Assembly: GCA_963665115.1 (NCBI GenBank)
Contig: OY762007.1
Span: 4,256,001-4,320,000 of the forward strand
Source of the DNA: an uncultured Rivularia sp.
Lineage (GTDB): Bacteria; Cyanobacteriota; Cyanobacteriia; Cyanobacteriales; Nostocaceae
Direction of reading: 5' to 3'
Length of the DNA: 64,000 bases
Shown: positions 2,243 through 37,829 of the stretch, in pieces
Layout of the letters: each line of letters opens with the position of its first letter
Numbering within the stretch: position 1 is the stretch's first letter
The notes under the pieces: model-generated
Told to the model about the DNA's origin: nothing
Seen by the model: only the letters and a program-made list of their open reading frames with translations
The model's database searches: none
Program-made: the position numbers and the translations under genes

Positions 2243-2251
2243 TTAATAATT

Positions 2252-4274: not shown

Positions 4275-4348
4275 CACCTTGAGCTTAAATCATCATCGCA
4301 AAAACGCTTATGGAAGATTTACCACAAGCGTAATAACTAAATCCCAGA

Positions 4349-4555: not shown

Positions 4556-4659
4556 CTGTCTAACCTGTTAACTGATAACAATATTTATTCTAAATGTGAA
4601 AAACAAATTGTGTATTGCTCTGATTGTTAACAATTGTTCTTTCCTCTTTTTATAGCGCT

Positions 4660-7600: not shown

Positions 7601-8457
7601 ATTCTCTTTCCAGTAAAAGCGTAGTTATTACTAGTTCAAAAAATCCCGATAATAAATTGCAGATTGATAAGGTTAATAAATATGCTTTTAAATCTAATCA
7701 GTGGCAGAATGAAGAAGCGAATATTGCTTTAGCTATAGGACAAACTAACCCTAGGGGCGCACCAACTGTTTTCGCAAAAGTAGATAATAAAATATTAGGA
7801 ACCGTTAATAAAAAATCAGTCAAATTTTTACAAGAAAAACTTAACGCTGTTGGTAAATCAATCCAGGGATTTACGTTTTCTGGTACTTTAAAAAATGCTC
7901 CTGCTAGCTATGCGGATATTATAATTGACCCCTCGACCGTAAAATTTCCACAAATTGAAACTAGCTCACAACAGGATAATAAAAGCTTGATTGAAAGTAA
8001 TGAGCCTGTTTGCACTGTTTTATTTTTTGAAGCATCTGTAGATAGTAAGTTTCAACAGAAAACAGAGCAAATAATGGCTAATATGCTTAAACGGGCTGTT
8101 GAACGTGCGGTGGAGTTAGGTTACTCCAAGGTACAGTTTGTTGATGTTTCTACAAATACCACAGAGTCTTCAGCTTTAAGAACTGTTGAACAACTTACGG
8201 CTGAACACAAAGATATTAAAGTTGATTTTATAGGTGGTGCGTCCGTAGAAGATGCAATTGGACTGATGAAGAAACCAACAGATATTGTAATTGGGATAAA
8301 AAATACTCAAACCATTGGCATGATTGATTTTGTCGCTGCTCAAGGAAAGGCGATCGCCACTTACAATCCCCAAACACAGAAATTTGATAGACGGAATTTA
8401 CCTGCTCCGAGAAAGACTGCTGAAATAACTAAAGATATTGAACGCGACGAACGTTGA
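4660..8457 (+). CDS. Single-subunit two-barrel (eukaryotic RdRP/YonO-like) RNA polymerase-like protein with putative C-terminal SLOG/YspA-like domain
   Basis: GDCKGLI (5050), AFQFRLG...AKGTL (5110-5181), IVTRSP (5911) and catalytic-type CDFDGD (6034-6051) in the expected order; ATG 4660 preferred over TTG 4624. Confidence 0.7.
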   Translation: MVIKLNHFDTKTKQDTGIEEKLENTLAEYLFPGVEFRIGTAYPEATIPQDLEEHNGMTLQFSARKRMYFANDPDVRSLLYPNPSDGAAYPLPFTPCRSFHELHNIRILVIDDVTGDSGGIIATSDAKKLVGDCKGLIDKDFASSNNIEPRAFQFRLGIRPQKQSHVMRIAKGTLAPERLDKLGESKLQISGSARKGTIRTRTGYDMVLATSSFKGRKGEDAIKPGEYLFDIGLGVKSVAQYRQHSLGTQILVNYPRAVKEEILPILKQQAEELASSQKSPRELAQKYVENYEHRKALLEDIKKETITETDEKLSEKLAILDCFCCNTEDEEINQEEELSAEQKDLLIYSLLKVDLNNFCQLIEHPKIVAELQEFARKEWVDIATGRSIKFMSGLAQPNLDLQEDEICIPYLKEGLEIIVTRSPLINSNGVITLNNKHLPKMLSGCVYINPKTAMDNMQCDFDGDLLAFASSEEFPIMTEEVKQKNLPVNKYPDIVKKEKVPYQGSFPEIAVSAMENKIGIIANEIQKNIALRCEIDELPQSIKVEYIQKVSTHLNYILSKHSHTTLQLPEDRLNRIYQIARTGNTSLDTNQVDIQLQSFKKLLKDYVSELSNELQVATDGAKSALRPDNNIIQHCQVVTSYKEVEWLADKKNTEAFTNKGMATNGLSPIDLMIQQTNRIFEENQIIARPIEQFRNLYPTIEFTSEHKQQAQNIRHKYNSLIKERIELQERKKIEPGAYIVISSPISGRKLEVTNLIKYDISKDTEFWNATELSITIKPRQPTLKLPHPLSACIQYQTPEGVNRIKPIGTISMKSMAENNLKPGMTIKQGKVEFYFGISHSMIDALKQQTLEYVESIRNSTPDNEKLQLAAAIHDISHTEENKNYVGLKKAGVAFSIFIDEVIGQLNQLQFTQMRVLGTQFNHYANQNFAGEKVPIKFENGINPRAPNQTARWIIVEGKKLGTINGSSPHLLAGCEAIASINSLSSKSVVITSSKNPDNKLQIDKVNKYAFKSNQWQNEEANIALAIGQTNPRGAPTVFAKVDNKILGTVNKKSVKFLQEKLNAVGKSIQGFTFSGTLKNAPASYADIIIDPSTVKFPQIETSSQQDNKSLIESNEPVCTVLFFEASVDSKFQQKTEQIMANMLKRAVERAVELGYSKVQFVDVSTNTTESSALRTVEQLTAEHKDIKVDFIGGASVEDAIGLMKKPTDIVIGIKNTQTIGMIDFVAAQGKAIATYNPQTQKFDRRNLPAPRKTAEITKDIERDER

Positions 8458-8492
8458 ATTTGTATCAACCTATAACAACGGATTAGCGTAAA

Positions 8493-10310
8493 ATGACAAT
8501 GCTTTTTGATATCGAGCAATATCACCATCGGGATTCACAACATCACAAAGGTGACTGGGATGGTGTAAAGTACGATTCTGCTTGGGATGATGGTTCTGCT
8601 TTTCCACAAATTAACCATAAAACTTCTTCAAAAGAAACAGCACGTAGTAAGAAAACAGACTGTTGGTATACCCCACCTCATATTATTGAATTAGTTATCC
8701 AGGTTTTGGGAGAAATAACTCTTGACCCTTGCGCCGATGATGGACGACATATAAGAGCAGCAAAGCATTATACCTTTGATGACGATGGGTTGAAGCAGCC
8801 TTGGTACGGGAAAGTTTATATGAACCCTCCGTACTCACATCCTGGTCTTTGGATGAAGAAGCTGCAACTAGAATTTGAAACGGGTAATGTGGATGAAGCA
8901 ATTGCTCTTGTACCTGCTGCTACCGATACCAATTGGTTATCTCCGGTTTTGAAAACTCAACCTGTATGTTTTTGGAAGGGGAGAATTAAGTTTTTAGGTC
9001 AAGATTATCAACCAAAATTATCTGCAAGACAGTCTCATGTGTTGGTTTATTGGGGTAACAATTGGCAGAAATTTAGGGAAGTATTTGAAGACTATGGAGT
9101 GGTATATTTCCCAATTCCCCCTGTTGATAATAACGAGGTGCTAGGGGAAAACATATCACTTAACAATTCCCCTAGCACCCGGATGGAAGATAAGAGCCAA
9201 ACCCTTGATAATAGTTCATCAACATCAAATCTTTCAAATGCTCAACTAAGTAATGATGACCAGGTGCTAGGGGGAAATATATCACCTAACAATTACCCTA
9301 GCACCCAGATAGAAGATAACAGCCAAACCCTTGATAGTAGTTCATCAACATCAATTCTTTCAAATACTCAAATAAGTAATGATAACCAGGTGCTAGGGGG
9401 AAATATATCACTTAACAATTCCCCTAGCACCCGGATGGAAGATAAGAGCCAAACCCTTGATAATAGCTCATCGACATCAATTCTTTTAAATACTCAAATA
9501 AGTAATGATGACCAGGTGCTAGGGGAAAACATATCACCTAACAATTCCCCTAGCAACCGAATAGAAGATAATAGCCAAACCCTTGGTAATAATTCATCAA
9601 CATCAATTCTTTCAAATACTCAAGTAAGTAATGATAACCAGGAGAAGCGGGAAAACATATCACCTAACAATTCCCCTAGCACCCGAATAGAAGATGGAAG
9701 CCAAACCCTTGATAGTAGTTCTTCAACATCAAATCTTTCAAATACTCAAGTAGGTAATGATAATCAGGTGCTAGGGGGAAATATATCACTCAACAATTCC
9801 CCTAGCACCCGAATAGAAGATGGAAGCCAAACCCTTGATAATAGTTCTTCAACATCAAATCTTTCAAATGCTCAAGTAAGTAATGATAACCAGGTGCTAG
9901 GGGGAAATATATTACCTAACAATTCCCCTAGCACCCGGATAGAAGATGAAAGTCAAACCCTTGTTAATAGTTCATCAAAATTAAGTCATGCAAATACTCA
10001 ACTAAGTAATGATGACCAGGTGCTAGGGGGAAATATATCACTAAATAATCCCCCTAGCACCTATCGTAAACGCGGTGAGGGCAGCGGTAATATTTCATGG
10101 GGTTATGCAAATGCTAATAGCACTAAAAAGAAACCAGTCAAACAGCTTTATTTCGAGTGGGAATATAGGGGTAAAAGAGGAAAGACTTATGTGCGATCGC
10201 ACTTCTTCGAGCAAGTTATTTCAATGAATGAAGCGAAAGTTCCAGTTGTAGTGATATTGAAATTATTAACTTACAATCCAAAAGTAGCGGGTGCTTTGGG
10301 TCTTAATTAG
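8493..10310 (+). CDS. Phage-type DNA N6-adenine methyltransferase with internal 42-aa tandem repeats
   Basis: DCWYTPP, LDPCA, YMNPPYS, ALVPAATDTNW and GRIKF motifs; S/N-rich repeats; basic C-terminal domain. Confidence 0.8.
   Translation: MTMLFDIEQYHHRDSQHHKGDWDGVKYDSAWDDGSAFPQINHKTSSKETARSKKTDCWYTPPHIIELVIQVLGEITLDPCADDGRHIRAAKHYTFDDDGLKQPWYGKVYMNPPYSHPGLWMKKLQLEFETGNVDEAIALVPAATDTNWLSPVLKTQPVCFWKGRIKFLGQDYQPKLSARQSHVLVYWGNNWQKFREVFEDYGVVYFPIPPVDNNEVLGENISLNNSPSTRMEDKSQTLDNSSSTSNLSNAQLSNDDQVLGGNISPNNYPSTQIEDNSQTLDSSSSTSILSNTQISNDNQVLGGNISLNNSPSTRMEDKSQTLDNSSSTSILLNTQISNDDQVLGENISPNNSPSNRIEDNSQTLGNNSSTSILSNTQVSNDNQEKRENISPNNSPSTRIEDGSQTLDSSSSTSNLSNTQVGNDNQVLGGNISLNNSPSTRIEDGSQTLDNSSSTSNLSNAQVSNDNQVLGGNILPNNSPSTRIEDESQTLVNSSSKLSHANTQLSNDDQVLGGNISLNNPPSTYRKRGEGSGNISWGYANANSTKKKPVKQLYFEWEYRGKRGKTYVRSHFFEQVISMNEAKVPVVVILKLLTYNPKVAGALGLN
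9137..10061 (+). repeat. 126-bp tandem repeat (7 full units plus a partial eighth), each with an internal inverted repeat
   Basis: GGTGCTAGGGG-N21-CCCCTAGCACC starts at 9137, 9263, 9389, 9515, 9641 (degenerate left arm), 9767, 9893 and 10019. Confidence 0.95.
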
Positions 10311-16066: not shown

Positions 16067-16762
16067 TTAATTCTTAAAATTAAAACGATATCCCATACCA
16101 TGTAAAGTTTCGATGGGATTTCCACAGCCGCTAGCAGCTAATTTTCGTCGTAATAAACGTACCTGTGCGGCTACTACATTGCTACTTGATTCTGCACTTG
16201 CTTCCCAAAGTTGATTGCGAATTTGTTCGGTTGTGAGAATTTGGTTGGGGTGGTTCATAAAATATTCTAGTAACTGAAATTCTTTGTTAGTCAAAGACAT
16301 TTCTTGTTTATCTGATGAAGCATTTTTATTAATTATTGTATTATTCCCATAGTCCAAAGTTAGATTACCCATAGTAACTTGAGGGGGTTGAAATTGAGGT
16401 ACCCTTCTTTGCAAAGCTCGTAACCTTGCCAATAATTCCTCCATCCCAAAAGGTTTCACTAAATAATCATCTGCCCCAGCATCCAAACCAGCTACCTTAT
16501 CTTCCATACTATCTTTAGCTGTTAACATTAAAACGGGCATCGCATTTTTATTCTGACGCAGTTTTTGACATAATTCCAATCCCGAGATTCCTGGAAGCAG
16601 CCAATCGAAAATACCTATTTTATATTCCGTCCATTTATCTTCTAAAAGCTCCCATGCTTCATTACCATCCATTACCCAATCAACTAAATACCTTTGTTGA
16701 GTTAAAATTCGCTTAATCGCTGCACCCAAATCCGGTTCGTCTTCTACTAATAGTATTCTCAT
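16067..16762 (-). CDS. rppA: OmpR-family response regulator, RppA/NrsR/CopR-like
   Basis: MRILLVEDE, FDWLLPG, GADDYLVKPF and NVVAAQVRLLRRKL. Confidence 0.9.
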   Translation of the reverse strand: MRILLVEDEPDLGAAIKRILTQQRYLVDWVMDGNEAWELLEDKWTEYKIGIFDWLLPGISGLELCQKLRQNKNAMPVLMLTAKDSMEDKVAGLDAGADDYLVKPFGMEELLARLRALQRRVPQFQPPQVTMGNLTLDYGNNTIINKNASSDKQEMSLTNKEFQLLEYFMNHPNQILTTEQIRNQLWEASAESSSNVVAAQVRLLRRKLAASGCGNPIETLHGMGYRFNFKN

Positions 16763-16823
16763 AAAACACCCATAAAATTTGAGTTTAATAAATTTCACTC
16801 TAAAAATAGATTTACATAAAATT

Positions 16824-26255: not shown

Positions 26256-27512
26256 CTATACTCTAAACACAATTGCGGGGTCTACTTTGCTGACTTTCTG
26301 AATTGCAAATAAGGCGGAACCAATACACATCAAGACAGTTATGCCAAAAACCCCAATAGCTGTTAATGGAGTAATTAAAATTACAATACCTTGAGTTGCT
26401 GAAGTCCAAGCACCTACCCCTAAGCAAAGCAACATTCCTGGAATATAACCAAGAATTGACATCCATAGAGCTTGCTCAATGATTACGCCATATATCACCC
26501 TGTTTGATGCCCCCATAGCTTTGAGCGTGCCAAATTCTTTTAAATGGTCGGTGACTGCTGAGTATAGAATTTGACTAACAATCACAACTCCTACAACCAC
26601 ACCAACTCCTGCACCCAAACCTAAAATAAATCCAATTCCCGTGGATTTTTGCCAATAAATTTGTATTTTTTCAGATAATTCTGCTGTCGTATATGCTTTA
26701 GTTTCTGGGAAAGTGGCTTCTAAGCGTTTTTTTAATTGTTGAATATTTTGACCTGGCTGTGCCTGAATCAATACGTAAGATATGGGCGAATTTAAGCTTA
26801 ATTGTGGTGGTGGTTCGTTCTGCGATTGTTGTTTCTTAGCATCAGCATCTTTATCTTTTTTGTAAACGTTGCGACACTGAAGTTCTTCTCCAACCCAGGT
26901 ACAGTTAACGTTTGTAGTAACGCTAGCATTAAGGTAGGCATTTGCAGTGTCTAAAGAAGTAAATAAAAAGGGACTTGAAACAACTGATTGAGTATCTTGG
27001 GTTAAGCCGATTACTTGTACTGGTAATGAGCCAATTTGACCCATATCTCCAATTTTTTTTATTTGGAGAGACTTTAAATTACTTTTATCAATTATTGCTG
27101 TATAGGGATTTTCCAGAGATTTGACGTTATTATTAACCGTGTTTCCAGGTACAAATAATTTTCCCGTAGGCGAAAATCCGTATATCTTAACCACATTGAT
27201 TTTGCCACCAGGTACACTCCAATTAGCCGCACCCTGAAGCAATGCTTCGGCTCTTTTTACACCATCAACTTTTTTAGCTCTAACGGCATAATCAAACAGA
27301 AGTGGTCGCGTCAGTTCAAGTTGTATCATCTTATCCGATGCTAACCAGATATCGGCTGGGGAATTTTCGACTAAAGCTACAGTAGAACGAATAACCCCAT
27401 TCAAGACTCCAGTTTGAATAGTCACTAAGCTGACAGCAAACATGATTCCCGCTTGAGCTACTAAAAAGCGCGGAATGTCTTCAAACAGGTTTTTGCGAGC
27501 AATAGAAACCAT
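26256..27512 (-). CDS. FtsX/DevC-like ABC permease (no adjacent ATPase)
   Basis: MVSIARKNL, EFGTLKAMGA and VDPAIVF motifs; four TM segments. Confidence 0.85.
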   Translation of the reverse strand: MVSIARKNLFEDIPRFLVAQAGIMFAVSLVTIQTGVLNGVIRSTVALVENSPADIWLASDKMIQLELTRPLLFDYAVRAKKVDGVKRAEALLQGAANWSVPGGKINVVKIYGFSPTGKLFVPGNTVNNNVKSLENPYTAIIDKSNLKSLQIKKIGDMGQIGSLPVQVIGLTQDTQSVVSSPFLFTSLDTANAYLNASVTTNVNCTWVGEELQCRNVYKKDKDADAKKQQSQNEPPPQLSLNSPISYVLIQAQPGQNIQQLKKRLEATFPETKAYTTAELSEKIQIYWQKSTGIGFILGLGAGVGVVVGVVIVSQILYSAVTDHLKEFGTLKAMGASNRVIYGVIIEQALWMSILGYIPGMLLCLGVGAWTSATQGIVILITPLTAIGVFGITVLMCIGSALFAIQKVSKVDPAIVFRV

Positions 27513-27627
27513 TTGAATTGAAAATTGTTAAGAACTAATTCTGCAAAAAAGCTTCAACATATTGAAAATTTGAATTTAAAAAGACTTTAATAAAGACACG
27601 AGAATGAACTGCTTTCTTGCAGAAGTA

Positions 27628-27735
27628 ACTTTAGTTAAACAATGTCAAGAACTCGGAAAGATTACAATGCCTTTATTTAGTTACAGTTCTAAAAGGCGGA
27701 ATCTTATCAAGTTCTTGACACTTCAAAAGTAAGTT
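27628..27735. promoter_or_regulatory. Divergent pair of TCTT-box promoters
   Basis: - strand TCTTTCCGAGTTCTTGACA (27661-27643)-9 bp-TAAAGT; + strand TCTTATCAAGTTCTTGACA (27702-27720)-9 bp-TAAGTT. Confidence 0.7.
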
Positions 27736-27764
27736 AATAAGCAGGTAATTTACTATAAAATCAA

Positions 27765-29477
27765 ATGACAAGCCTTTCTTTGTCAGTTCTGGCTGCTTAT
27801 GCTTCCTATCACAAAGTTAAGTTAACTCGTAAAACTCTTCAGGTCTATACAGTCCAAGAGCGGTTTTTGCTTAATCTCCTCAAAGCCCACCAAAACACTG
27901 AAATGGGGAGAAACTTGGGATTAAGCAGCATTAAAACTATTGGTCAATTTCGCCAGCAAGTTCCGATTCTGCCTTATGAAAGCTACGAGCCTTACGTTAA
28001 ACGCATCAGCCAAGGAGAGAAAAATGTTCTCAATCCTGAACCAGTAGTCTATATTAATCTGACCAGTGGTTCCACTGGAAACAAAAAGCAAGTGCCTGTG
28101 ACTCGCACTTTTCAAGCTTCCTTACGACGGGCAGATTTAGCTAGTATGGGCTTTGCAATCGAATTGCTACAGCAGCGGGGGCTAGAGTTTGGCAAAACGC
28201 TGCTCCCTAACTCGGCGAATTTACAAGGAATTACAAATGGTGGTATTCCTTACGGTCCGGTGAGTGTGGGCAGTATTCGCAAGGGTAAGTTTCTGTTTGA
28301 GCAAGCTTTTGTGCATCCCTTTGAAGCGCTCAAAATTGCCGATAGTCTTGCTAGACATTATGTCTGCCTGCTATTTGCCCTGCGAAATCGAGATATGCGG
28401 GGATTTACGGCTAATTTTCCGATGTTGGTTTTGCGTACCTGCGGCTATCTAGAACGCTACGGGGAAGACTTAATTAATGACCTAGAAACTGGTGCGATCG
28501 CCTCTTGGTTAAAATTAGAACCGCATATTCGCGCCAAGCTAGAGCGTAAATTATTCCCAGTATCAGAAAGAGCCGCAGAGCTAAGGCAAATCCTCGAAAC
28601 AGAGGGAAGACTTACGCCGAAGCAAGTATGGTCTGGTTTATCCTACATTCTCACGGCTCAAGGAGGAACATCGGACTTTTATTTGCAGCATTTCCCGCAT
28701 TACTTTGGAGATACTCCTGTGTTTGGTGGTGTCTACGGTTCGGCGGAAGCTACATTTAGCGTTTATCATAAATTCAATTCCGAAAGTGGCATCCTGGCAA
28801 TTGAAAGCGGGTTTTTTGAATTTATTCCCCAAGAACAGTGGGAAGTCGAAAATCCTCAAACTTTTCTGGCAACAGAAGTACAGCCTGGAAAACTTTACCG
28901 CATTTTAGTTACAAGCTACAGTGGTTTTTACCGTTATGACATTGGCGACGTTGTAGAAGTAGTAGGATTTTATAATCAAGCTCCCTTGATTGCCTTTCGC
29001 TACCGTCGGGGTGGACTGCTATCTTCCACGACCGAAAAGACAACTGAATGTCACGCAATTGGGGTAATGCAAGCACTCCACCAAGAGTTTAATCTGCGCT
29101 TAGATGATTTCTGCATCACACTTTCAGAGCAGGAATTTCCCGCTCATTATATAGTTAATATCGAACTGGCTGCGGGAGAAACATTAAGTAATCCCCAAGC
29201 GTTCCTGAATCGTTTTGAGTATTGGCTCAAACAGATAAATACTCCTTACGGAACCGTGCGTGAGGGACAAGTACCACCACCTATATTAAGAATTTTAAAA
29301 CAAGGCAGTTTTAATATTGTTCGTCAGCGACAGTTAAAAAAAGGTATGCCTGATTCTCAACTCAAGTTACCCCACATCACTGAAGACCGTTCGTTTTTAG
29401 CTGAACTCCCTATCGAATATGAAGTCACATTATCTGATGAATGTGTCAATCAAATTCTCTATCCTCTTGCTGATTAA
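27765..29477 (+). CDS. GH3-family acyl-adenylate/amido synthetase
   Basis: LTSGSTGNKK, YGSAE and YRYDIGD GH3 motifs. Confidence 0.9.
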   Translation: MTSLSLSVLAAYASYHKVKLTRKTLQVYTVQERFLLNLLKAHQNTEMGRNLGLSSIKTIGQFRQQVPILPYESYEPYVKRISQGEKNVLNPEPVVYINLTSGSTGNKKQVPVTRTFQASLRRADLASMGFAIELLQQRGLEFGKTLLPNSANLQGITNGGIPYGPVSVGSIRKGKFLFEQAFVHPFEALKIADSLARHYVCLLFALRNRDMRGFTANFPMLVLRTCGYLERYGEDLINDLETGAIASWLKLEPHIRAKLERKLFPVSERAAELRQILETEGRLTPKQVWSGLSYILTAQGGTSDFYLQHFPHYFGDTPVFGGVYGSAEATFSVYHKFNSESGILAIESGFFEFIPQEQWEVENPQTFLATEVQPGKLYRILVTSYSGFYRYDIGDVVEVVGFYNQAPLIAFRYRRGGLLSSTTEKTTECHAIGVMQALHQEFNLRLDDFCITLSEQEFPAHYIVNIELAAGETLSNPQAFLNRFEYWLKQINTPYGTVREGQVPPPILRILKQGSFNIVRQRQLKKGMPDSQLKLPHITEDRSFLAELPIEYEVTLSDECVNQILYPLAD

Positions 29478-29680
29478 AAGTTTAAAAAACCTTAATATTA
29501 GGTCAGAGTAGTCATCGTAATACCCGATCTTGTGAAGTAAAAATAAGTATATTGTTCTGTACGTTAAACTCCGTGCAGAGTCAGTTTGCCAAGAAAAACT
29601 TAGTCAGTAAAAAATACTGAAGGGGAATGAAGAGCAATGGGAGTTTTATTAATTTATCCTTACTTGTAACTCTTTAATCT

Positions 29681-30091
29681 ATGAAAAAAAACAGCACGTT
29701 CCAAAATTGGAAACAAAGAGTTAGACAGCTAAAAGGGGAAACCTCTGCTCTTTATTATGCTAGCAAAGACCCAAGAACACCTTGGTATACTAAATTTCTT
29801 GCTATATGTGTAGTTGCTTATTTATTCAGTCCGATTGATTTGATTCCGGATGTAATTCCTATACTGGGTTATTTAGATGATTTGATATTAATACCGTTGG
29901 GAATTTTTTTACTTTTGAAGCTAATACCTAAAACTGTAATGGATGAATCTCGTGAAAAGGCAAAAATAATTGAGAATACACCAAACAGCAAATTTATCAC
30001 AATAATTATAGTTTGCATCTGGATATTTACCGGAATGCTAACAGTTTTTTTAATTCATAGTTTGTTCCAAAATAGTAAAAAATCATTTTAA
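29681..30091 (+). CDS. YkvA/DUF1232 membrane protein
   Basis: YLFSPIDLIPDVIPILGYLDD. Confidence 0.9.
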   Translation: MKKNSTFQNWKQRVRQLKGETSALYYASKDPRTPWYTKFLAICVVAYLFSPIDLIPDVIPILGYLDDLILIPLGIFLLLKLIPKTVMDESREKAKIIENTPNSKFITIIIVCIWIFTGMLTVFLIHSLFQNSKKSF

Positions 30092-30377
30092 CGATTAATG
30101 TTCGTGTTGTTTCACCTTGCAATTAAATTATTTTTGAAACTGAAATTTGTCGAGACTAAAACTGAAGTAAGTTACAAGTTATGTCTTTGAAACAGAATGA
30201 TTTCTAATTAGATGTTTAATGAATAACTGACATCGCCTTGTTTAAGTAGAAAAAACAAATTACTGGTAAAATCCTGGTTATGGTAGTTCATGGGAAGCGG
30301 CTAAAGTATGGATTATAAATCATATTTTTTTGATTATTAATATCATTTTATAAAAATTTACAAAATGTGAATATAAA

Positions 30378-30411
30378 TCTTCCCAACTTCTTGACATTTA
30401 AGTTTTATTGT
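30378..30411 (+). promoter_or_regulatory. TCTT-box promoter upstream of the response regulator
   Basis: TCTTCCCAACTTCTTGACA-9 bp-TATTGT. Confidence 0.7.
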
Positions 30412-30501
30412 GAAATAACAAACCGAATTCAACACTATAAAATTGTTTTACCATAAACTAATATGCTTGATTTTATTGGTAAGAAGGTAAAAGCTGAAAC
30501 C

Positions 30502-31182
30502 ATGAAAATCTTAATTGTGGAAGATGATAGCCGAATAGCTAAAGCGCTGGCTGAAGATTTAAGACATCAACATCATGTAGTTGATATTGCTCCCGATGGA
30601 ATTGAGGGATGGAATTATGCTCAAACAACTGAGTATGACTTAATACTATTAGATTTGTTGCTACCGCGCTTAGATGGTGTTAGTCTTTGCAAAAAATTGC
30701 GAGCAGATAGATGTAATGCTCTAATTTTGATGTTAACATCCAAAGATACTACCACTGATAAAGTAATTGGACTGGATGTCGGAGCAGATGACTATTTAAT
30801 AAAGCCCTTTGAATTAGAAGAATTAGCCGCACGAATTCGCGCTTTATCCCGTAGAACTCCAGAATTTAAACCACCAATTTTAACTCACGGTAAACTACAA
30901 ATTGACCCCAATAGTAGCGAAGTTTTTTATGCAGGCAATGCTCTTTATTTGACACCCAAAGAATACTTAATTTTAGAATACTTTCTGCGCCATACCCAGC
31001 AAGTTTTAACCCGTTCGGCAATTCTTGAAAAACTTTGGGAATTCGACAAATTTTCTGGAGAAGGAACGGTGAAAACTCATATTACCAACTTGCGTAGTAA
31101 ACTCAGAACTGCTGGAAGTCCAGATAATTTAATTGAAACAGTCTATGGTGTGGGTTATCGTTTAGGCGCGGTTGATGATTAA
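30502..31182 (+). CDS. OmpR-family response regulator
   Basis: MKILIVEDD, LLDLLLP, GADDYLIKPF and IETVYGVGY; alternative start at 30463. Confidence 0.9.
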   Translation: MKILIVEDDSRIAKALAEDLRHQHHVVDIAPDGIEGWNYAQTTEYDLILLDLLLPRLDGVSLCKKLRADRCNALILMLTSKDTTTDKVIGLDVGADDYLIKPFELEELAARIRALSRRTPEFKPPILTHGKLQIDPNSSEVFYAGNALYLTPKEYLILEYFLRHTQQVLTRSAILEKLWEFDKFSGEGTVKTHITNLRSKLRTAGSPDNLIETVYGVGYRLGAVDD

Positions 31183-31218
31183 AAAAGTTTAGAAAATGTT
31201 ATCAACACCCTTCAAGTA

Positions 31219-32460
31219 ATGTTTCAGAAAATTCGCGATCGCCTACTTTTATCTAACTTAATTGTTTTTGCAATTGTTCTAGGAGGATTTGCAATTGTTG
31301 TGCGAGTTGTTTTTGTTCGCAGCCTCAATCAGCAAGTCATAGATAAACTTGTAGTTTTAGGACAAGGTGTAACTGTAGATGCAGAATTAGAAGCAGGAAA
31401 ACTAGATGTTGATGAACATTGGCAAGTTAGAGATTTAGATGCTCGTCAAGGTGGCATACAATGGTTTGATACTCAAGGTAATTTACTCAAGCAGCAAGGT
31501 AAATACATTTTAAATTTACCTTTGAATCCAAATACAACCGTGCAAAAACAAACTGAAGAAGAACGAAAAATTCAAGCAGTAACCTTACCAGTTTTGGATA
31601 ATGAAACTCAACAAAAAATTGGTTATATCAGAGTCAGTCAATCTTTAGAAGAGTTTGATGAAACTATCCAAAAATTAGACTTTGGTTTAGGTTCTGGCGT
31701 AATTTTTGCTTTATTTTTAAGCGGATTTGGGGGATTGTGGCTTAACCGTCAATCAATGCAGCCAATTGAAGAAAGTTTTGAACGTCTCAAGCAATTTACT
31801 GCTGATGCTTCTCATGAATTACGCAATCCTTTGATGGCAATTAAAAGTAGTGTCGCAGTCGCTTTGAAGTATCCAGAAGGAATGAGAACTATTGATGAGG
31901 AAAAATTTACCGCTATTGCCAGCGCCACCAATCAAATGACTCAATTAACCGAAGATTTACTACTTCTAGCACGCACGGATAAAATTGCCGATATCGAGCG
32001 AAAAACTATTAACTTAAGTATAATTATTTATAACTTAATACAATTATATAAACCTCAAGCACAAGCTAAAAAAATCGATTTAAAAGCAGAAATTAAGAAC
32101 CATTTATTATTGCCTGGAGATGCAAAACAACTGAGTCGAGCATTGGGTAATCTTATTCAAAATGCGATTTATTATACTCACAAAGGTGGAACAGTTGAAG
32201 TAAAAGCAAATCGTGTAGATTCTTACTATCAGGTAACGGTAGAAGATACAGGTGTAGGTATTGCAACAGAAAATTTACAGCGAATTTTTGAGCGGTTTTG
32301 GCGTTCCGATCAAGCTCGTTCTTATGAATCGGGTTGTTCTGGTTTGGGTTTAGCAATTTCTCAAGCAATTATCCAAAATCATTCAGGTTCAATTACTGTT
32401 ACCAGTGAGTTAGGGGTAGGTAGTTGTTTTACTGTCACTTTACCCACTTACCTTGAATAA
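31219..32460 (+). CDS. Sensor histidine kinase
   Basis: Two TM segments, FTADASHELRNP and an HATPase domain. Confidence 0.9.
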   Translation: MFQKIRDRLLLSNLIVFAIVLGGFAIVVRVVFVRSLNQQVIDKLVVLGQGVTVDAELEAGKLDVDEHWQVRDLDARQGGIQWFDTQGNLLKQQGKYILNLPLNPNTTVQKQTEEERKIQAVTLPVLDNETQQKIGYIRVSQSLEEFDETIQKLDFGLGSGVIFALFLSGFGGLWLNRQSMQPIEESFERLKQFTADASHELRNPLMAIKSSVAVALKYPEGMRTIDEEKFTAIASATNQMTQLTEDLLLLARTDKIADIERKTINLSIIIYNLIQLYKPQAQAKKIDLKAEIKNHLLLPGDAKQLSRALGNLIQNAIYYTHKGGTVEVKANRVDSYYQVTVEDTGVGIATENLQRIFERFWRSDQARSYESGCSGLGLAISQAIIQNHSGSITVTSELGVGSCFTVTLPTYLE

Positions 32461-32577
32461 ATTTCACTTAATTTAATATTGTTTGCGATGTTGATTAATT
32501 TTAAGAAGATAAAATTATTCATCTGAATAATATCAAACTCTCTTTATTATAAATATTTTCATTCACCATACACAATT

Positions 32578-33282
32578 ATGAAAAATCATCTCCAAGAATT
32601 AAAAAATTTCTGGTTTTCTCGCGTACATCGTCGTATAGCTCCTCTAATTGCTACTATTGAAGTTACTGGTTTAGTTATATGTTTATTAATTATTTACCTT
32701 TTAGCAAAGCTCTCAGAAGAAGTTTGGGAAAAAGAAGCCTTTGCTTTTGATAAAACTATTTTGCTGTGGATACATCAGTTTGCGAATCCCACATGGGATA
32801 ATATCATGCTTAATATTACAAAAATTGGTAATCCTACGACGGTAGTGACAATTACTATCATCACTTTCGGCATACTTTGGTGGAAACGGTATCGAAAAGA
32901 AGCAACAATTTTTGGTATTCACGCCCTCGGAGGTGCAATTCTTAGTTATGGTTTGAAACTGTCTTTCAGCAAACCGCGTCCGCAACTTTGGCAGCAACTA
33001 ATTACAGAAACAAGCTATAGTTATCCTAGCGGTCATGCGTTGGGTTCGATGGTGCTTTATGGTTTTATAGCTTATTTGCTAGCATCCCATTATCCAAAAC
33101 AGAGCAAAATCATTTATACTTTCGCGGTTATATTAATTGGTGCTATCGGTTTAAGTCGGCTGTACTTGGGGGTACATTGGCCAACAGATGTGATTGCTGG
33201 TTATGGAGTTGGTTATCTGTGGTTGATGTTTTCTATTACTATGCTTAAATTACAAAAATCACGATACGTTAGAGGCGTATAA
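32578..33282 (+). CDS. PAP2-family membrane phosphatase
   Basis: KxxxxxPRP, SYPSGH and SRLYLGVHWPTD. Confidence 0.9.
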   Translation: MKNHLQELKNFWFSRVHRRIAPLIATIEVTGLVICLLIIYLLAKLSEEVWEKEAFAFDKTILLWIHQFANPTWDNIMLNITKIGNPTTVVTITIITFGILWWKRYRKEATIFGIHALGGAILSYGLKLSFSKPRPQLWQQLITETSYSYPSGHALGSMVLYGFIAYLLASHYPKQSKIIYTFAVILIGAIGLSRLYLGVHWPTDVIAGYGVGYLWLMFSITMLKLQKSRYVRGV

Positions 33283-33416
33283 TAATTTTATTAATCTATT
33301 AATCGCCCACTGAGTGTGAAAACTGTGCGATCGCACATTGATTGTGCCGACCTAAAACTATTAGATCGGCTCTCCACTCTTAAGCAACATGGCAAATAAT
33401 TTTCTGTAAATCGCTA

Positions 33417-34184
33417 TCAATGTTGTCTATCAATTGGTTGAGAAGCTGGTTTCTTGTGCTTAAAGCTGAAGTAAATAACCAAACTCAGGATTATACAAAG
33501 AAAAAGTATACTGGTTCCAGTTGTACCTAAACCATAGCCACCATTTTTAGCAGGTTGAGATAGTAAATCACCGATAGATGCTCCCAGGGGACGAGTCAAG
33601 ATGTAAGCTAACCAAAATGCCAATACTCCATTCATTCCGAAGTAATAATAACAGCCCGTTATAATTGCAATTAAAGCACCAAATATTAATGCTGATTGTG
33701 CATAACCAAGTTTCAAAGCTTCTGCTAATAAATCTCCAGTTGCAGTACCTAAAGCAAACGTAAATAAAATAGCCATCCAGTAGAAAAATTCTCTTTCATT
33801 TGTGTTAATGGAGTGCATAGCTAATGTCTTTTCTTTGGAATACCAAAGCCCAAAAACTACCAGCAAGACAACAGTAAAAGCTATAGTTGTTGTGACTAAA
33901 CTAACGCCAAGATTGTCTACCAGACTATCAGTAATCAACGTGCCAGTGATACTCATAAAAACTACTACAATCCAGTAACTTGCTGGAACATACTTTTTAA
34001 GCCTAAACTGATTCAAAAGCGCAATCAGTAATACCCCGCTCATAAGATAAGATGTTAGGGTCAAACCAAGGTTTAGAGTTACTGACAGAAAATCTGCCGC
34101 AGTTTCACCTACCGTTGTTGCTAGAATCTTGATAATCCAGAAATAAATTGTTACTTCTGGAACTCTGCTTAATACTTTTGTCAT
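33417..34184 (-). CDS. COG4705/DUF347 repeat membrane protein
   Basis: FWIIKILATTVGETAAD, FALGTATGD and LTRPLGASIGD. Confidence 0.85.
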   Translation of the reverse strand: MTKVLSRVPEVTIYFWIIKILATTVGETAADFLSVTLNLGLTLTSYLMSGVLLIALLNQFRLKKYVPASYWIVVVFMSITGTLITDSLVDNLGVSLVTTTIAFTVVLLVVFGLWYSKEKTLAMHSINTNEREFFYWMAILFTFALGTATGDLLAEALKLGYAQSALIFGALIAIITGCYYYFGMNGVLAFWLAYILTRPLGASIGDLLSQPAKNGGYGLGTTGTSILFLCIILSLVIYFSFKHKKPASQPIDRQH

Positions 34185-34274
34185 GATGTTTTTCCTACTT
34201 GATTTTTTGAAAGTAATATTATGAGGGTTCAAAAACTTCGATCTACATATGACAGTTGAGGAGCGGAATGTGGG

Positions 34275-34658
34275 TTATAGTTTATGAACAAATATTGGAT
34301 CTAGAAGCGTATAATCATTAATATTAGTCCAATATTGAATCGCTACAATCGCAGTACCGAAATTAGCTTCAAGCAAGGCTCTATTGAAATCTGCTTTTTT
34401 CTCCGCTAATTGATTTGCTAAGGTGAAAGGATCGAGTAAATTTTTGAACATTATTTCTTCAGTGCCAAAGTATTGAACCAGTATATGCGGGTCACTACCT
34501 ACTATTAACACCGTATCTAATGGTGTAATCAAACTAAATTCAGAAAAGCTATCAACTTCGAGTTTTACAAAAGCTGGTAAGTTATGTTGAGCGTAATAAG
34601 AAATCATCAGCTCAACCTCTTTGTAGATACGTGATATTAAGATGTCAGAGATTTTCAC
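34275..34658 (-). CDS. Hypothetical protein
   Basis: 127-aa ORF co-oriented with its neighbours; no motif recognised. Confidence 0.45.
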   Translation of the reverse strand: MKISDILISRIYKEVELMISYYAQHNLPAFVKLEVDSFSEFSLITPLDTVLIVGSDPHILVQYFGTEEIMFKNLLDPFTLANQLAEKKADFNRALLEANFGTAIVAIQYWTNINDYTLLDPIFVHKL

Positions 34659-34791
34659 CGTTAGTTAAAACAGAGAGGGATATAAAAGCAAGAATTAAGA
34701 AAGGGTTTTGAGAACAAGAAATAAATTACTTACCTCAAAACCCGTTAATTGGTGTGAGTGAGAAAAATTATCTGTGACGAATACTTACAGA

Positions 34792-35364
34792 CTATTGCTT
34801 TTCATTTTCATTATCAGTATCGGGGACTTGAATACTGCTGCGGGGACGATTGGCTTCTGTAGCTTCGTCGTCTTCTTGATTTTCGTCTTCTGTATAGAGA
34901 ACTTTACCGTTACCCGCATCAACAATTACTTCTTTTTTGCCAATCTCCACGTCATACACGAGATTACCATCTTCGTTTTCTAATTCCACCTTTGTGGCTT
35001 TTCCTCCTATCTCTGCTTCTGCTGCTGAAGCAGCTTGTTCGGGAGTAATTTTTGCTAAAGATTGATATTTTGCAGCTTCTTGTTTTTCTTCTGCATCATC
35101 ATTTGTTTCACCATCACCATCGCTTGCTTGAGCTATTTTGATGGTTTTACTATTATTGTTTACTGCTACGGTTTGACCAAGTTGATTATTTTCAGGTGCT
35201 TCAGTAGCATCATTTGCTTCACCATCACCGTCGCTAGTTTGATATTGAGACACACCTGGTAACTGCGACTCGGTTTGTTTTGCAGACACGTTGCGAGTGA
35301 ATCCAGCAAAACCTAAAGTACCTACTAAAGCTGCTGCTAAAGCGATTCTTGTTGTTCTATTCAT
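34792..35364 (-). CDS. Secreted PepSY-domain protein with two acidic SDGDGExND repeats
   Basis: Signal peptide; AKITPEQA...VELENEDGNLVYDVEI...VDAGNGKVL. Confidence 0.85.
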   Translation of the reverse strand: MNRTTRIALAAALVGTLGFAGFTRNVSAKQTESQLPGVSQYQTSDGDGEANDATEAPENNQLGQTVAVNNNSKTIKIAQASDGDGETNDDAEEKQEAAKYQSLAKITPEQAASAAEAEIGGKATKVELENEDGNLVYDVEIGKKEVIVDAGNGKVLYTEDENQEDDEATEANRPRSSIQVPDTDNENEKQ

Positions 35365-35397
35365 GATGTGATTTCTTGTTCTTGGTTTGTTATTTAC

Positions 35398-35431
35398 ACT
35401 GTAGATATAAATAGTTAAGAAGTTGAGAAGA
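35398..35431 (-). promoter_or_regulatory. TCTT-box promoter upstream of the PepSY gene
   Basis: TCTTCTCAACTTCTTAACT-9 bp-TACAGT on the - strand. Confidence 0.65.
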
Positions 35432-35579
35432 ATTTGATCGAATATATTAGAAGTATTGAAACTAGAAATAAAATTTAACCTTAAAAGCTAGTTTATACAG
35501 CTAATATTTTAATTTCTAAATGTTTGAAGACTGTGTTTGAATAATTACGATAAATATTAAGGTTTTATTCCCTGCTGTT

Positions 35580-35613
35580 TCTTGCCAACTTCTTGACATT
35601 TTCTCTCTACTAT
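35580..35613 (+). promoter_or_regulatory. TCTT-box promoter upstream of the COG4705 gene
   Basis: TCTTGCCAACTTCTTGACA-9 bp-TACTAT. Confidence 0.7.
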
Positions 35614-35663
35614 AAAGCCGAAAGCTCAGATTATATATCGCCCCATAGCAAGCAGGAGCAGAA

Positions 35664-36410
35664 ATGAACAAAGTTGCACAAGTGACAATTTTCTTCTGGA
35701 TTATGAAGATCATCGCCACGACACTCGGTGAGACGGCAGGTGACTTCATCTCAATGTCTCTCGGACTGGGTTATTACGTAGGCTTTGCCGTAACGGTTGC
35801 CATCCTCGCCATTCTCCTGTTTTTTCAAATTCAATCCGATAGATATCGTCCAGCCCTTTATTGGGCGGCTATCATCGCCACGACTACAGCCGGAACTGAA
35901 GTTTCAGACTTGATGGATCGTTCTCTAGGGCTAGGCTACGCAGTGGGTTCGCTGATTTTAGTAGCCTGTCTCCTCAGCGTTCTTGCTATCTGGTATTACC
36001 GCGATCGCGATCTAAGTGTTTATCCGATTGTGAGGAAAGACGCAGAAACTACCTATTGGTTGGCTATCGTGTTTTCCAACAGTTTAGGAACGGCTTTTGG
36101 TGATTTTCTGACAAGCAACTTGGGACTGAGCTATATCCAAGGTGCATTCGTGACAGCCAGCGTCATTGGTGTTGTAATTGCCCTTCACTATGTATCAAAG
36201 CTGAGCGATATCCTGTTATTCTGGCTCGCGTTTATATTTACACGACCTTTCGGAGCCACCTTTGGAGATTTTCTTACTAAACCAATCAAAAATGGCGGTT
36301 TATCGCTGCCGAGAGGCTATGCTTCTGCGATCGCCTTCATCCTGCTGGCAGTTGTATTATTCTTCTCGGTACGAAGGGAGAGAAAAAAAGTGCGTCACTC
36401 AACTGAGTGA
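35664..36410 (+). CDS. COG4705/DUF347 repeat membrane protein (second paralog)
   Basis: FWIMKIIATTLGETAGD, NSLGTAFGD and FTRPFGATFGD. Confidence 0.85.
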   Translation: MNKVAQVTIFFWIMKIIATTLGETAGDFISMSLGLGYYVGFAVTVAILAILLFFQIQSDRYRPALYWAAIIATTTAGTEVSDLMDRSLGLGYAVGSLILVACLLSVLAIWYYRDRDLSVYPIVRKDAETTYWLAIVFSNSLGTAFGDFLTSNLGLSYIQGAFVTASVIGVVIALHYVSKLSDILLFWLAFIFTRPFGATFGDFLTKPIKNGGLSLPRGYASAIAFILLAVVLFFSVRRERKKVRHSTE

Positions 36411-36600: not shown

Positions 36601-37573
36601 ATGAAATTATTAAGTCAAAAAAGTGGTTCAAGGAATTGGAAGCAAAAGTTTCATTCCCACACTGGCGAAAGATTAAATTGGTTTCAAATAATTTTACGAC
36701 TTCAAAGTTCAAATTTAGCAAGCATCATTCCTTGGGTAGCATTTTCAACTGGATATAGTTTGATTATTGCCTTACTTGATTATGATGAAAAACATTTATC
36801 ATTGCCAAAAATAAGTGCTGGTGTTCCTAATATTATTTTGAGCTTCAATCTTGTTTTAAGCTTGCTGCTAGTTTTTCGGGTAAATGCAGCTTACGACCGA
36901 TATTGGGAAGGTCGAAAATTGTGGGGAGCTTTAGTTAATTCAGTTCGTAACTTGACTCGTGGGATTGCAGTAATAATTGAGGTTCGCTCAGAACAAGATC
37001 GACTAGAAAAACAAGAAATCTTGAGGCTGATAGTTGCTTTTACCGTAGCTATAAAGTTACATTTGCGTCGTCAACCAGCAGACAAGCAATTAATGGTACT
37101 GATGACTTCATCTCGATATGCAAAACTTCAAAATACTAATCACCTGCCATTAGAAGTTGCTCTTTGGATTGGAGAATACTTGCAGAAGCAGTATCGCCAA
37201 AATCTTATTGATGTATATCAACTAACTACCTTACAAAAACTAGTTGATGACTTGGTAGATATTTTGGGCGGCTGCGAGCGTATTTTAAAAACACCAACAC
37301 CTTTAGCGATTTCAATTTTACTCAAACAATTGTTGGTGCTTTATTTTCTAAGTCTACCTATTGAAATGGTTGATAGTTTAAAGTGGTGGACAGTTCCTGT
37401 AATTGCTGTTATTTCTATAGTTTTGTTTGGAATTGAGGATATCGGCTCTGAATTAGAAAATCCTTTTGGATGCGACCCCGAATAATTTACCTTTGCATCT
37501 AATTTGTGACGCGATATCTACCAACGTTGAAGAGTTAATTCAATCTCAAGAATCATTCCCAATCTCGTCGTGA
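36601..37573 (+). CDS. Bestrophin-family channel (apparent +1 frameshift at C4 37476-37479)
   Basis: LLLVFRVNAAYDRYWEGR, GGCERI and ELENPFG; removing one C restores DPNNLPL and extends the ORF to 37573. Confidence 0.85.
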
Positions 37574-37577
37574 GAAA

Positions 37578-37829
37578 TTGTCTGGGAAGTTTCGATTCCA
37601 AGAGCTATATTTTCAAGAACAAGTAGAAATAGATTCTCTATCTACAAGAGAAGAGAAAATAAACCGTCTTGCGGAATTGAATGTCCGAAAGCAAGTTAAA
37701 AACCTCTACCAAACATTAATTTTACGTAAGTGTATGCGAGAAGAGAATGCACCTTTCATTCATGGTTGGGTAATTAATGTTAAAACTGGCTTAATTAAAG
37801 ATATGCAGGTACAAACTTCAGAAGCGTAA
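37578..37829 (+). pseudogene. C-terminal fragment of a beta-carbonic anhydrase
   Basis: LAELNVRKQVKNL...IHGWVINVKTGLI; the N-terminal half with the zinc ligands is absent. Confidence 0.65.

What the first reader, a model, noticed from the sequence alone, without database searches (positions are those of the whole stretch)
26256..36410. Second regulon: a TCTT direct-repeat box joins GH3 ligase, ABC permease, PAP2, DUF347 and PepSY genes
Seen: five copies of TCTTnnC(A/G)AnTTCTT(G/A)AC at 27643(-), 27702, 30378, 35413(-) and 35580, each followed after exactly 9 bp by TAnnnT. They precede the DevC-like permease, GH3, the regulator-kinase(-PAP2) genes, PepSY and a DUF347 gene. Established: OmpR-family regulators bind direct repeats with a ~11-bp period and often autoregulate. 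Inference: an undescribed envelope or lipid-carrier stress system that gives a functional context to a bacterial GH3 enzyme and DUF347 proteins.
Basis: partly seen in the sequence, partly recalled or inferred. Interest (0 to 1): 0.7.

Follow-up and report, generated by a model that had tools for sequence, protein, structure and literature searches.

The report
Cyanobacterial mmf-like regulon and its box
A short repeated DNA box sits at a fixed place in front of five genes here and in front of the same kinds of cell-envelope genes in many other cyanobacteria; it is likely the switch site of the neighbouring sensor-regulator pair and likely turns on a little-understood metal-stress toolkit, to which a lipid-making GH3 enzyme has been added in some lineages.

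Summary
The box is real. The five copies are the only exact matches in the 8.69-Mb genome. Each lies 10 bp (not 9) before a TAnnnT element, which is pho-box geometry. The box recurs in 87 of 401 genomes of the order (18 of 401 with a 9-bp spacer), co-occurs with this kinase clade, and its base 16 covaries with the regulator's recognition helix. The conserved core is PepSY, two DUF347 proteins, PAP2 and the regulator-kinase pair. These effectors are homologous to the zinc/lead-induced mmf cassette of Cupriavidus Tn6048, but the regulator (33% to MmfR) and the box differ. GH3 is an accessory member: most cyanobacterial GH3 genes lie, box-free, in a ceramide-like lipid cluster, and box-led second copies appear in a few lineages. 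devC is the weakest member: here it inherited the box when the small secreted-protein gene that the box serves in congeners was deleted. Best reading: an activator-controlled response to excess metal at the cell envelope. Binding, start sites and signal are untested. New variant of a known kind; interest 0.45.

The parts
27644..27661 (-). Box 1 (40.5 bits), TAnnnT at 27628-27633; now leads devC
   Evidence: in congeners G699 and G691 the orthologous box leads a 132-133-aa secreted-protein gene missing here
27702..27719 (+). Box 2 (27.3 bits), TAnnnT at 27730-27735; leads GH3
   Evidence: near-identical footprint in G699 and G691 while flanks diverge
30378..30395 (+). Box 3 (35.0 bits), TAnnnT at 30406-30411; leads regulator-kinase(-PAP2), predicted autoregulation
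   Evidence: kept in G686
35414..35431 (-). Box 4 (26-30 bits), TAnnnT at 35398-35403; leads PepSY, possibly read through to the 127-aa ORF and DUF347a
   Evidence: kept in G686, G691, G699
35580..35597 (+). Box 5 (39.9 bits), TAnnnT at 35608-35613; leads DUF347b
   Evidence: kept in G686
26256..27512 (-). DevC-like FtsX/MacB permease; second copy of the resident chromosomal devC (87% aa, 82% nt); no ATPase gene next to it
27765..29477 (+). GH3 acyl-acid amido synthetase with all three nucleotide-binding motifs; 55% to the resident GH3 of the lipid cluster
29681..30091 (+). DUF1232 membrane protein; no box of its own, membership unclear
30502..31182 (+). OmpR-family regulator, A-type recognition helix TVKTHITNLR (longest ORF starts at 30463)
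31219..32460 (+). Sensor kinase; two membrane helices, ArlS_N-like periplasmic domain, acidic EEFDE patch just before the second helix
32578..33282 (+). PAP2 phosphatase with intact K-x6-RP, PSGH and SR-x5-H-x3-D motifs; MmfB counterpart (28%)
33417..34232 (-). DUF347a, MmfC1 counterpart (54%)
34275..34658 (-). 127-aa ORF of no family; seen in the same place in two congeners only
34792..35364 (-). Secreted acidic PepSY protein with two DGDGE repeats; MmfA counterpart (44% over 52 aa)
35664..36410 (+). DUF347b, MmfC2 counterpart (47%); predicted eight-helix membrane bundle with one invariant Asp per repeat

Best explanation
The box is likely the binding site of the adjacent OmpR-family regulator, which would switch on, likely in response to excess metal cations at the cell envelope, a cyanobacterial version of the mmf gene set: a secreted acidic PepSY protein, two DUF347 membrane proteins and a PAP2 phosphatase. 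Shown by sequence: a direct repeat (TCTT(T/G)(C/A)C, four bases, TCTTGAC; period 11 bp) 10 bp before a -10-like element, kept before PepSY, DUF347, PAP2 and regulator genes across many families. Inferred: the phosphorylated regulator dimer binds head to tail over the -35 position and recruits RNA polymerase as PhoB does (about 0.85). Inferred, weaker: the kinase senses Zn/Pb/Fe/Mn-type cations with the acidic patch beside its second membrane helix (about 0.55); PepSY binds metal or tunes the sensor; PAP2 frees phosphate and recycles the lipid carrier; the DUF347 pair moves a cation. GH3 is an add-on that likely changes, on induction, the amide lipid made by the resident lipid cluster. devC is a passenger that inherited a promoter.
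For: Spacing: 87 of 401 genomes with a 10-bp spacer against 18 of 401 with 9 bp; E. coli pho boxes lie 10 bp upstream of the -10 (PMC1906773 passage). Held-out test in 14 loci picked by kinase similarity, matrix retrained without them: PepSY 9 of 9, DUF347a 3 of 5, DUF347b 5 of 11, other genes 10 of 268. Co-occurrence over 400 genomes: 47 with box and kinase, 22 kinase only, 39 box only, 292 neither; 22 of 26 multi-site genomes have the kinase (kin are not independent). Helix-box covariation: A-type regulators go with G at position 16 in 32 genomes and T in 2 (4 ties); B-type with T in 9 and G in 1; A and B are separate clades. Effector homology to mmfA, B, C1, C2. [quoted passage not shown] DUF347 with UppP is up under lead stress in a Bacillus isolate (as cited in PMC4531530, passage). 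The ColS ExxE motif next to the second helix senses Zn and Fe (PMC4074579 passages); here E145 is kept in 28 and E148 in 26 of 37 kinases, and the patch is absent from the two RppB-type and the ManS-like kinases of this genome. Six of the nine plasmid copies viewed lie among metal-resistance genes (RND and TolC genes in 23), as does the window's copy.
Against: No binding, start-site or expression data. The signal rests on homology and neighbourhood, and mobile islands collect unrelated stress genes; three of nine plasmid copies viewed have no metal genes near them. The ExxE patch is not invariant (25 of 32 close kinases, and 3 of 8 more distant ones). MmfR/MmfS are not orthologs and mmfA has no such box, so zinc/lead induction need not carry over. 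The mmf phenotype itself is unsettled (Fe/V uptake and bacitracin resistance in PMC4914505). Some box-led genes point elsewhere: SbtA/SbtB in 6 genomes, bestrophin in 2, carbonic anhydrase in 2. 22 genomes have the kinase but no strict-pattern site; of 5 re-examined, 4 whose kinase loci were fetched had a degenerate box.
Confidence: 0.55

Rival explanations
1. Same regulator and box, but the signal is envelope damage or shortage of lipid carrier, not metal; PepSY would act as a periplasmic brake on the kinase, as DbfQ does on DbfS.
For: PepSY is the most constant target (first gene in 31 genomes). PepSY next to a two-component system is a widespread module and DbfQ binds DbfS (PMC12714742 passages). 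PAP2, BacA (3 genomes), ArnT-like transferases (2) and HtrA (2) are box-led. A plasmid with mmfA-mmfB conferred bacitracin resistance (PMC4914505).
Against: The acidic sensor patch, the acidic repeats of PepSY and the zinc/lead induction of the homologous cassette fit a cation signal better. The two readings overlap, since metals act on the envelope.
Confidence: 0.2
2. The system senses pH, calcium or inorganic carbon at the cell surface.
For: Box-led SbtA/SbtB in 6 genomes, bestrophin in 2, RTX calcium-binding proteins in 9; a bestrophin and a carbonic-anhydrase fragment follow DUF347b here; a proton P-type ATPase and a Ca/H exchanger lie beside the G068 copy.
Against: These targets are lineage-limited, and several RTX-led sites go with the B-type paralog. 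The core genes are the mmf homologs.
Confidence: 0.12
3. The boxes are Pho boxes of SphR and the genes answer phosphate shortage (phosphatases, a phosphorus-free amide lipid).
For: SphR binds 8-bp repeats CTTAACCT with 3-bp linkers, also an 11-bp period (PMC1906773); one window copy reads CTTAAC.
Against: Only six sites score above 14 bits in the whole genome, five in this island and one far below them, too few for a Pho regulon. The box is patchy and tracks this kinase clade.
Confidence: 0.04
4. The box is read by another regulator or is a sigma-factor promoter element, and the neighbouring pair is a bystander.
For: 39 genomes have a site but no close kinase hit; the box contains TTGAC.
Against: At least 8 of those 39 carry the B-type sister regulator beside a CTTTAC box and one carries an A-type regulator; single chance hits are expected at roughly the 18-of-401 level. 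Box base 16 covaries with the recognition helix.
Confidence: 0.05
5. The pair is a manganese sensor like ManS/ManR, as some database labels say.
For: Several homologs carry a JGI label 'manganese sensing sensor histidine kinase'.
Against: The genome has a separate, stand-alone kinase that I take to be ManS (25% over the sensor region; name recalled, not from a call) and an Mn/Zn ABC transporter locus with a different ATGA-type repeat. ManR represses an importer (PMC7020235); this box has activator geometry.
Confidence: 0.04

Closest known systems
mmfABC1DC2RS ('multiple metal response') cassette of Tn6048, Cupriavidus metallidurans CH34, pMOL98, pHB44 (PMC4914505; PMC2864759)
   Same: Same effector set: PepSY (44% over 52 aa), PAP2-type phosphatase (28%), two DUF347 paralogs matching C1 (54%) and C2 (47%), an OmpR pair; mobile; MmfD homologs are box-led in other cyanobacteria.
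   Different: Regulator 33% to MmfR and in another clade; kinase alike only in the catalytic part (30%); no box before mmfA; several separate promoters instead of one operon; no mmfD in this window; extra members such as GH3.
ColRS of Pseudomonas putida (PMC2689224, PMC4074579)
   Same: ExxE beside the second membrane helix; adjacent PAP2 gene; ArnT-like and RTX calcium-binding targets; window boxes match 10-11 of the 13 defined positions of the ColR consensus.
   Different: Orthology not tested; ColR's second half-site is TTTTT(C/G)AC, here TTCTTGAC; PepSY and DUF347 are not among the ColR targets in the passages read. The box likeness has no control and may be generic to OmpR sites.
DbfQRS of Vibrio cholerae and PepSY-plus-two-component modules (BqsRS, UipRS) (PMC12714742, PMC8963506)
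   Same: Small secreted PepSY protein encoded within four genes of the sensor pair and under its control.
   Different: Here PepSY has long acidic DGDGE repeats and its own promoter, and the module includes DUF347 and PAP2.
Cyanobacterial RppA/RppB (CopR/CopS-type) and ManS/ManR
   Same: Nearest named cyanobacterial families by profile score; the TTTCAT repeat of the window's other regulon also has an 11-bp period.
   Different: Below both NCBIfam cut-offs (229.5 of 250; 280.8 of 400), while the window's two other pairs pass; different clade, box and promoters.
OlsH, GH3-type N-acyl-ornithine synthetase of Singulisphaera (PMC12493201)
   Same: GH3 fold, three nucleotide-binding motifs; OlsC-like hydroxylases lie near cyanobacterial GH3 genes.
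   Different: Far below the OlsH cut-off (88 of 620 bits); resident context is an Spt-like/GNAT/reductase cluster; substrate unknown.

Membership tests
OmpR/PhoB-type activator site | Direct repeat with about 11-bp period | tested here: met
   Positions 1-7 and 12-18 of the matrix from 158 sites
OmpR/PhoB-type activator site | Fixed position 10 bp upstream of a -10 element | tested here: met
   5 of 5 window copies; 87 vs 18 of 401 genomes for 10 vs 9 bp
OmpR/PhoB-type activator site | Bound by the cognate regulator, with mapped start sites | not testable with these tools
   Only indirect: co-occurrence and helix-box covariation
mmf cassette (Tn6048) | PepSY, phosphatase and two DUF347 paralogs of C1 and C2 type | tested here: met
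   BLAST against L299, a canonical cassette by gene sizes
mmf cassette (Tn6048) | mmfD secreted protein | tested here: not met
   No match among window proteins; homologs box-led in G248, L131 and G686
mmf cassette (Tn6048) | Orthologous MmfR/MmfS and single-operon order | tested here: not met
   33% and 30% identity; MmfR in a separate clade with support 99 (quick tree); genes on both strands
mmf cassette (Tn6048) | Induction by zinc and lead | not testable with these tools
   Needs expression data
ColRS | ExxE motif next to the second membrane helix | tested here: met
   EEFDE at 144-148; E145 28 and E148 26 of 37
ColRS | ColR consensus box | tested here: inconclusive
   10-11 of 13 defined positions, no control
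ColRS | Orthology of regulator and kinase | not tested
   No ColR or ColS sequence was fetched
RppA/RppB (CopRS-type) | NCBIfam equivalog cut-offs and TTTCAT box | tested here: not met
ManS/ManR | Orthologous sensor; control of the Mn importer | tested here: not met
   Separate ManS-like kinase (identity recalled) and a different repeat at the Mn/Zn ABC locus
SphR Pho regulon | Sites spread over the genome's phosphate-uptake genes | tested here: not met
   Only the five island sites score above 17 bits genome-wide
DbfQRS-like module | PepSY gene within four genes of the sensor pair | tested here: met
   Kinase, PAP2, DUF347a, 127-aa ORF, PepSY; adjacent or nearly so on plasmids
DbfQRS-like module | Direct PepSY-sensor binding | not testable with these tools
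   Needs a binding assay
GH3 acyl-acid amido synthetases | Three nucleotide-binding motifs and full GH3 domain set | tested here: met
   LTSGSTGNKK at 99, VYGSAE, GFYRYDIGD at 387; PF03321, PF23571, PF23572
OlsH equivalog | NCBIfam cut-off 620 bits | tested here: not met
   88 bits
DevBCA exporter | DevC cut-off and adjacent ATPase and adaptor genes | tested here: not met
   146 of 290 bits; a DevA-like gene lies only beside the resident copy

The most novel reading that the evidence does not exclude
Cyanobacteria have a metal-triggered membrane-remodelling switch: under this regulator a second GH3 ligase is swapped into an undescribed ceramide-like lipid pathway (box-led second GH3 copies sit inside the resident cluster in G686, G500 and G080), while the DUF347 pair, an eight-helix fold with four invariant intramembrane aspartates, acts as a new kind of cation transporter and the acidic PepSY protein as its metal-binding partner.
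Probability: 0.2. Interest if true: 0.7.

Novelty: new variant of a known kind. Interest (0 to 1): 0.45.

Why it matters
It gives a precise operator and a target list for an uncharacterised OmpR clade present in about a fifth of the genomes sampled from this order. Copies lie on plasmids of culturable strains (Nostoc punctiforme PCC 73102, Tolypothrix PCC 7601/7712, Anabaena cylindrica PCC 7122), so one reporter experiment could find the signal. That would also bear on the long-unexplained mmf cassette and on DUF347, whose transporter role is only a guess in the papers seen. The A/B pair of sister regulators, with one box base tracking the recognition helix, is a small natural test of how OmpR specificity diverges. 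The GH3 link offers an inducible handle on an unstudied cyanobacterial lipid cluster.

Tried and rejected
Complex prediction of the kinase sensor domain with the PepSY domain: no verdict (score 0.00), used neither for nor against. DUF347 fold searches found nothing clear (Foldseek best E 0.095; VIA-align best Z 7.3, none at 8 or more), which shows neither a shared nor a new fold; the ESM Atlas returned only DUF347 clusters. The full-length kinase model matched only catalytic domains, so the sensor fold was not tested. The careful GH3 tree did not finish; the quick tree is cited. The UipA paper (PMC8857325) was not held; UipA is known to me only through a review passage. A generic sigma-70 scan found no excess of promoters (31 vs 35.7 in shuffles), as expected if the box replaces the -35. 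Rejected: the 9-bp spacer; RppA/CopR, ManR and SphR identity; devC as a conserved member; the regulon as the main context of GH3. Literature: full-text searches for DUF347; cyanobacter + PepSY + two-component + response regulator; GH3 + cyanobacteria; cyanobacteri + OmpR + direct repeat + PAP2 + regulon; ManR/ManS showed no paper on this regulon or box in their listings. The library lacks most subscription papers, and no supplements were read; ChIP or DAP-seq tables there could already hold this motif.

Full report
Setting. The window lies at 4,256,001-4,320,000 of a single 8.69-Mb contig. The nearest named relatives of the kinase are from Rivularia and Calothrix at 77-81%. From my reading of the ORF translations (no family scan), the flanks look like conjugation and partition genes, and the middle is a large copper/cadmium/arsenic resistance cluster, so the region looks like an integrated mobile element.

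Observation. The pattern has five exact copies in the window and none extra at 2 mismatches; 0 of 100 shuffles reach five. They are the only exact copies in the genome. All five are followed by 10 bp and then TAnnnT. My first genome-wide search used 9 bp by mistake and so serves as a control: 0 sites here and 18 of 401 genomes, against 4 sites here (the fifth has TTAAC, outside that pattern) and 87 of 401 genomes with 10 bp. A matrix from 158 sites of other genomes puts the five copies at 26-41 bits and the next site in this genome at 16. Columns left free in the search are conserved too. The element is TCTT(T/G)(C/A)C, four bases, TCTTGAC, then (A/T)TTT: two half-sites 11 bp apart. E. coli pho boxes have the same period and lie 10 bp before the -10 (PMC1906773, passages). 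The window's other regulon uses TTTCAT repeats at different promoters, including the one for the RND operon right behind devC.

Which protein reads it. Over the same 400 genomes, 47 have both the box and a close kinase (E at most 1e-27 on the sensor region), 22 the kinase only, 39 the box only and 292 neither; 22 of 26 genomes with two or more sites have the kinase. Kin are not independent, so the odds ratio overstates. In 14 loci picked by kinase similarity and scored with a matrix retrained without them, a box lies before PepSY in 9 of 9, DUF347a in 3 of 5, DUF347b in 5 of 11, the regulator in 0 of 16, PAP2 in 0 of 3, and other genes in 10 of 268; the misses are mostly inner genes of box-led operons. 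Two sister regulator clades exist. A-type (TxKTHxTNLR, as here) goes with CTTGAC in 32 genomes, CTTTAC in 2, with 4 ties; B-type (TVKVHxRxLR) goes with CTTTAC in 9 and CTTGAC in 1 (loci holding both types were left out). This is the best indirect evidence that the regulator contacts the box.

What the regulon holds. In 131 loci, most of them fetched around box hits, 218 sites in 89 genomes or records scored 22 bits or more; 21 had no downstream ORF. Genomes in which a family is the first gene, or any gene, of the unit: PepSY cluster 31/32, DUF347 21/26, regulator 4/17, kinase 0/15, PAP2 8/14, RTX calcium-binding proteins 7/9, a small PepSY_TM protein 5/8, SbtA 4/6, a 114-146-aa secreted protein 6/6, GH3 1/2, DevC 0. 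Rarer members are BacA, a metallophosphoesterase, ArnT-like transferases, HtrA, a Pls/PosA-type synthetase, DUF2127 and bestrophin. These are compositions, not enrichments. Fourteen plasmid records carry the kinase; nine were viewed, and all have DUF347 or PepSY beside it.

The closest known system. An earlier finding of this scan (e1-5299241) pointed to the mmf cassette. [quoted passage not shown] A Janthinobacterium plasmid holds a cassette with the same gene sizes. Against it, PepSY is 44% over 52 aa, PAP2 28%, DUF347a 54% to C1, DUF347b 47% to C2, but the regulator only 33% and in another clade, and mmfA has no box. So it works like mmf but is not a member: the effectors are shared and the control is different. 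ColRS is a second analog: PAP2 next door, an ExxE before the second helix, and a consensus that the window boxes match at 10-11 of 13 positions (PMC2689224 and PMC4074579, passages). RppA/RppB cut-offs are not met.

Likely mechanism of the parts. The kinase has EEFDE at 144-148, absent from the genome's RppB-type and ManS-like kinases but present in 3 of 8 more distant relatives. PepSY is secreted and acidic, with DGDGE in 17 of 38 cluster members; PepSY proteins bind metals (UipA; review PMC8963506, passages) or restrain their sensor (DbfQ; PMC12714742, passages). DUF347b folds as eight helices at pLDDT 92.6; D27, D82, D147 and D202, one per repeat, plus K15, E23 and R194 are invariant in 42 sequences. 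One genome fuses the two paralogs into an eight-repeat protein, so they likely act as a pair.

GH3. GH3 homologs occur in 95 of 331 genomes of the order. Of the 29 best loci in other genomes, 2 have a box at 22 bits or more, 1 has a weak one (17) and 26 have none. The usual context is a cluster with an Spt-like aminotransferase (best PDB match a serine palmitoyltransferase), a 380-aa GNAT protein, an NAD-dependent reductase, Rieske, JmjC, fatty-acid and OlsC-like hydroxylases, a radical-SAM enzyme, an MFS and DevA/DevC. This genome has that cluster at 2.17-2.19 Mb, box-free. The window's GH3 is 55% identical to the resident one and falls in a clade of five (support 96, quick tree), four with a box; the box label needs at least three changes on the tree. 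In G686 the ortholog of the window's GH3 (87%) sits, with a 36-bit box, directly behind the resident GH3 and before the OlsC-like gene. G500 (weak box, divergent from a box-led PepSY) and G080 (exact 18-mer, but an 11-bp spacer) show the same two-copy layout; one other tandem pair viewed has no box (L292). G394 and G557 have box-led GH3 genes, but no close kinase was found in them. OlsH makes N-acyl ornithine (PMC12493201, passages), but this protein scores far below its cut-off. I infer that the regulon has repeatedly recruited a second GH3 to alter a lipid; the substrate is unknown.

devC. It is a second copy of the resident devC (87% aa, 82% nt) without an ATPase partner. In congeners G699 and G691 the orthologous box leads a 132-133-aa secreted protein of a family that is box-led in six other genomes; the window matches G699 on both sides of that gene and lacks about 530 bp holding it. 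In G699 devC follows the small gene; in G691 only a fragment remains, elsewhere. So devC expression from this box is plausible here but not a conserved function. Three of 25 other genomes of the genus carry three or more strict sites and the island.

Verdict. A real regulon with a defined operator, not seen in the literature searches I could run (listings only). Regulator-box assignment about 0.85; metal as the signal about 0.55; the GH3 lipid-switch reading about 0.2. New variant of a known kind; interest 0.45. Other papers consulted, as passages only: PMC4531530, PMC8895605, PMC9756366, PMC13079394 (Hrr1 binds a different repeat), PMC7020235.

Noticed in passing
G000:C1:2,170,800-2,191,600 (L270, L289); also L273-L275, L040, L285, L288, L292: Conserved cluster of Spt-like aminotransferase, GNAT protein, NAD-dependent reductase, GH3, hydroxylases, radical-SAM enzyme, MFS and DevA/DevC; looks like a ceramide-like or amino-lipid pathway. 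PMC8895605 reports ceramides in two cyanobacteria and none in N. punctiforme.
   Followed up: partly
window 16824-58763, minus strand (about 11 sites, e.g. 16824, 16983, 19229, 19845, 20045, 20235, 26047, 42341, 55355, 58076, 58763): TTTCAT-N5-TTTCAT repeats before copper and metal-resistance genes: the window's other regulon, likely read by the two RppA-type regulators at 16067-16798 and 56769-57470.
   Followed up: partly
L210, L211, L200, L198, L181, L194, L195, L222, L306: B-type sister two-component system with a CTTTAC box, leading RTX calcium-binding proteins, a small PepSY_TM protein, ferritin-like proteins and an MmfD homolog; absent from this window.
   Followed up: partly
L141, L142, L143, L144, L146, L196: SbtA/SbtB bicarbonate transporter genes under the same box in six genomes, twice with a carbonic anhydrase; an unexpected input to carbon uptake.
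   Followed up: no
L164:6025-10083, L155, L152, L158: A Pls/PosA-type (poly-amino-acid) synthetase gene under the box in four genomes of one family, two of them seen only in part.
   Followed up: no
L277:10065-11621; L038:1160-2401: Natural fusions: an eight-repeat DUF347a-b protein, and a DUF347 protein fused to an MmfD-like domain.
   Followed up: partly
window 36601-37829: Bestrophin_2 gene followed by an 83-aa carbonic-anhydrase fragment, no box here; in G699 the orthologous box leads bestrophin directly.
   Followed up: partly
window 59826-63003: A CusA/CzcA-like RND permease appears split into two overlapping ORFs (626 and 471 aa).
   Followed up: no
window 808-10310 and L280: ParM/ParA-like, large replication or primase-like and conjugation-like ORFs (read by eye) suggest a plasmid integrated into the chromosome.
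   Followed up: no
G000:C1:2,267,952-2,275,426: A third, divergent GH3 gene beside Rieske, ferredoxin and sterol-desaturase-like ORFs, unrelated to the box.
   Followed up: no
L017-L020: A TCTTAAC-N4-TCTTAAC repeat with the same 10-bp spacing between two small genes in four genomes of genus g9; probably the site of another OmpR regulator.
   Followed up: no
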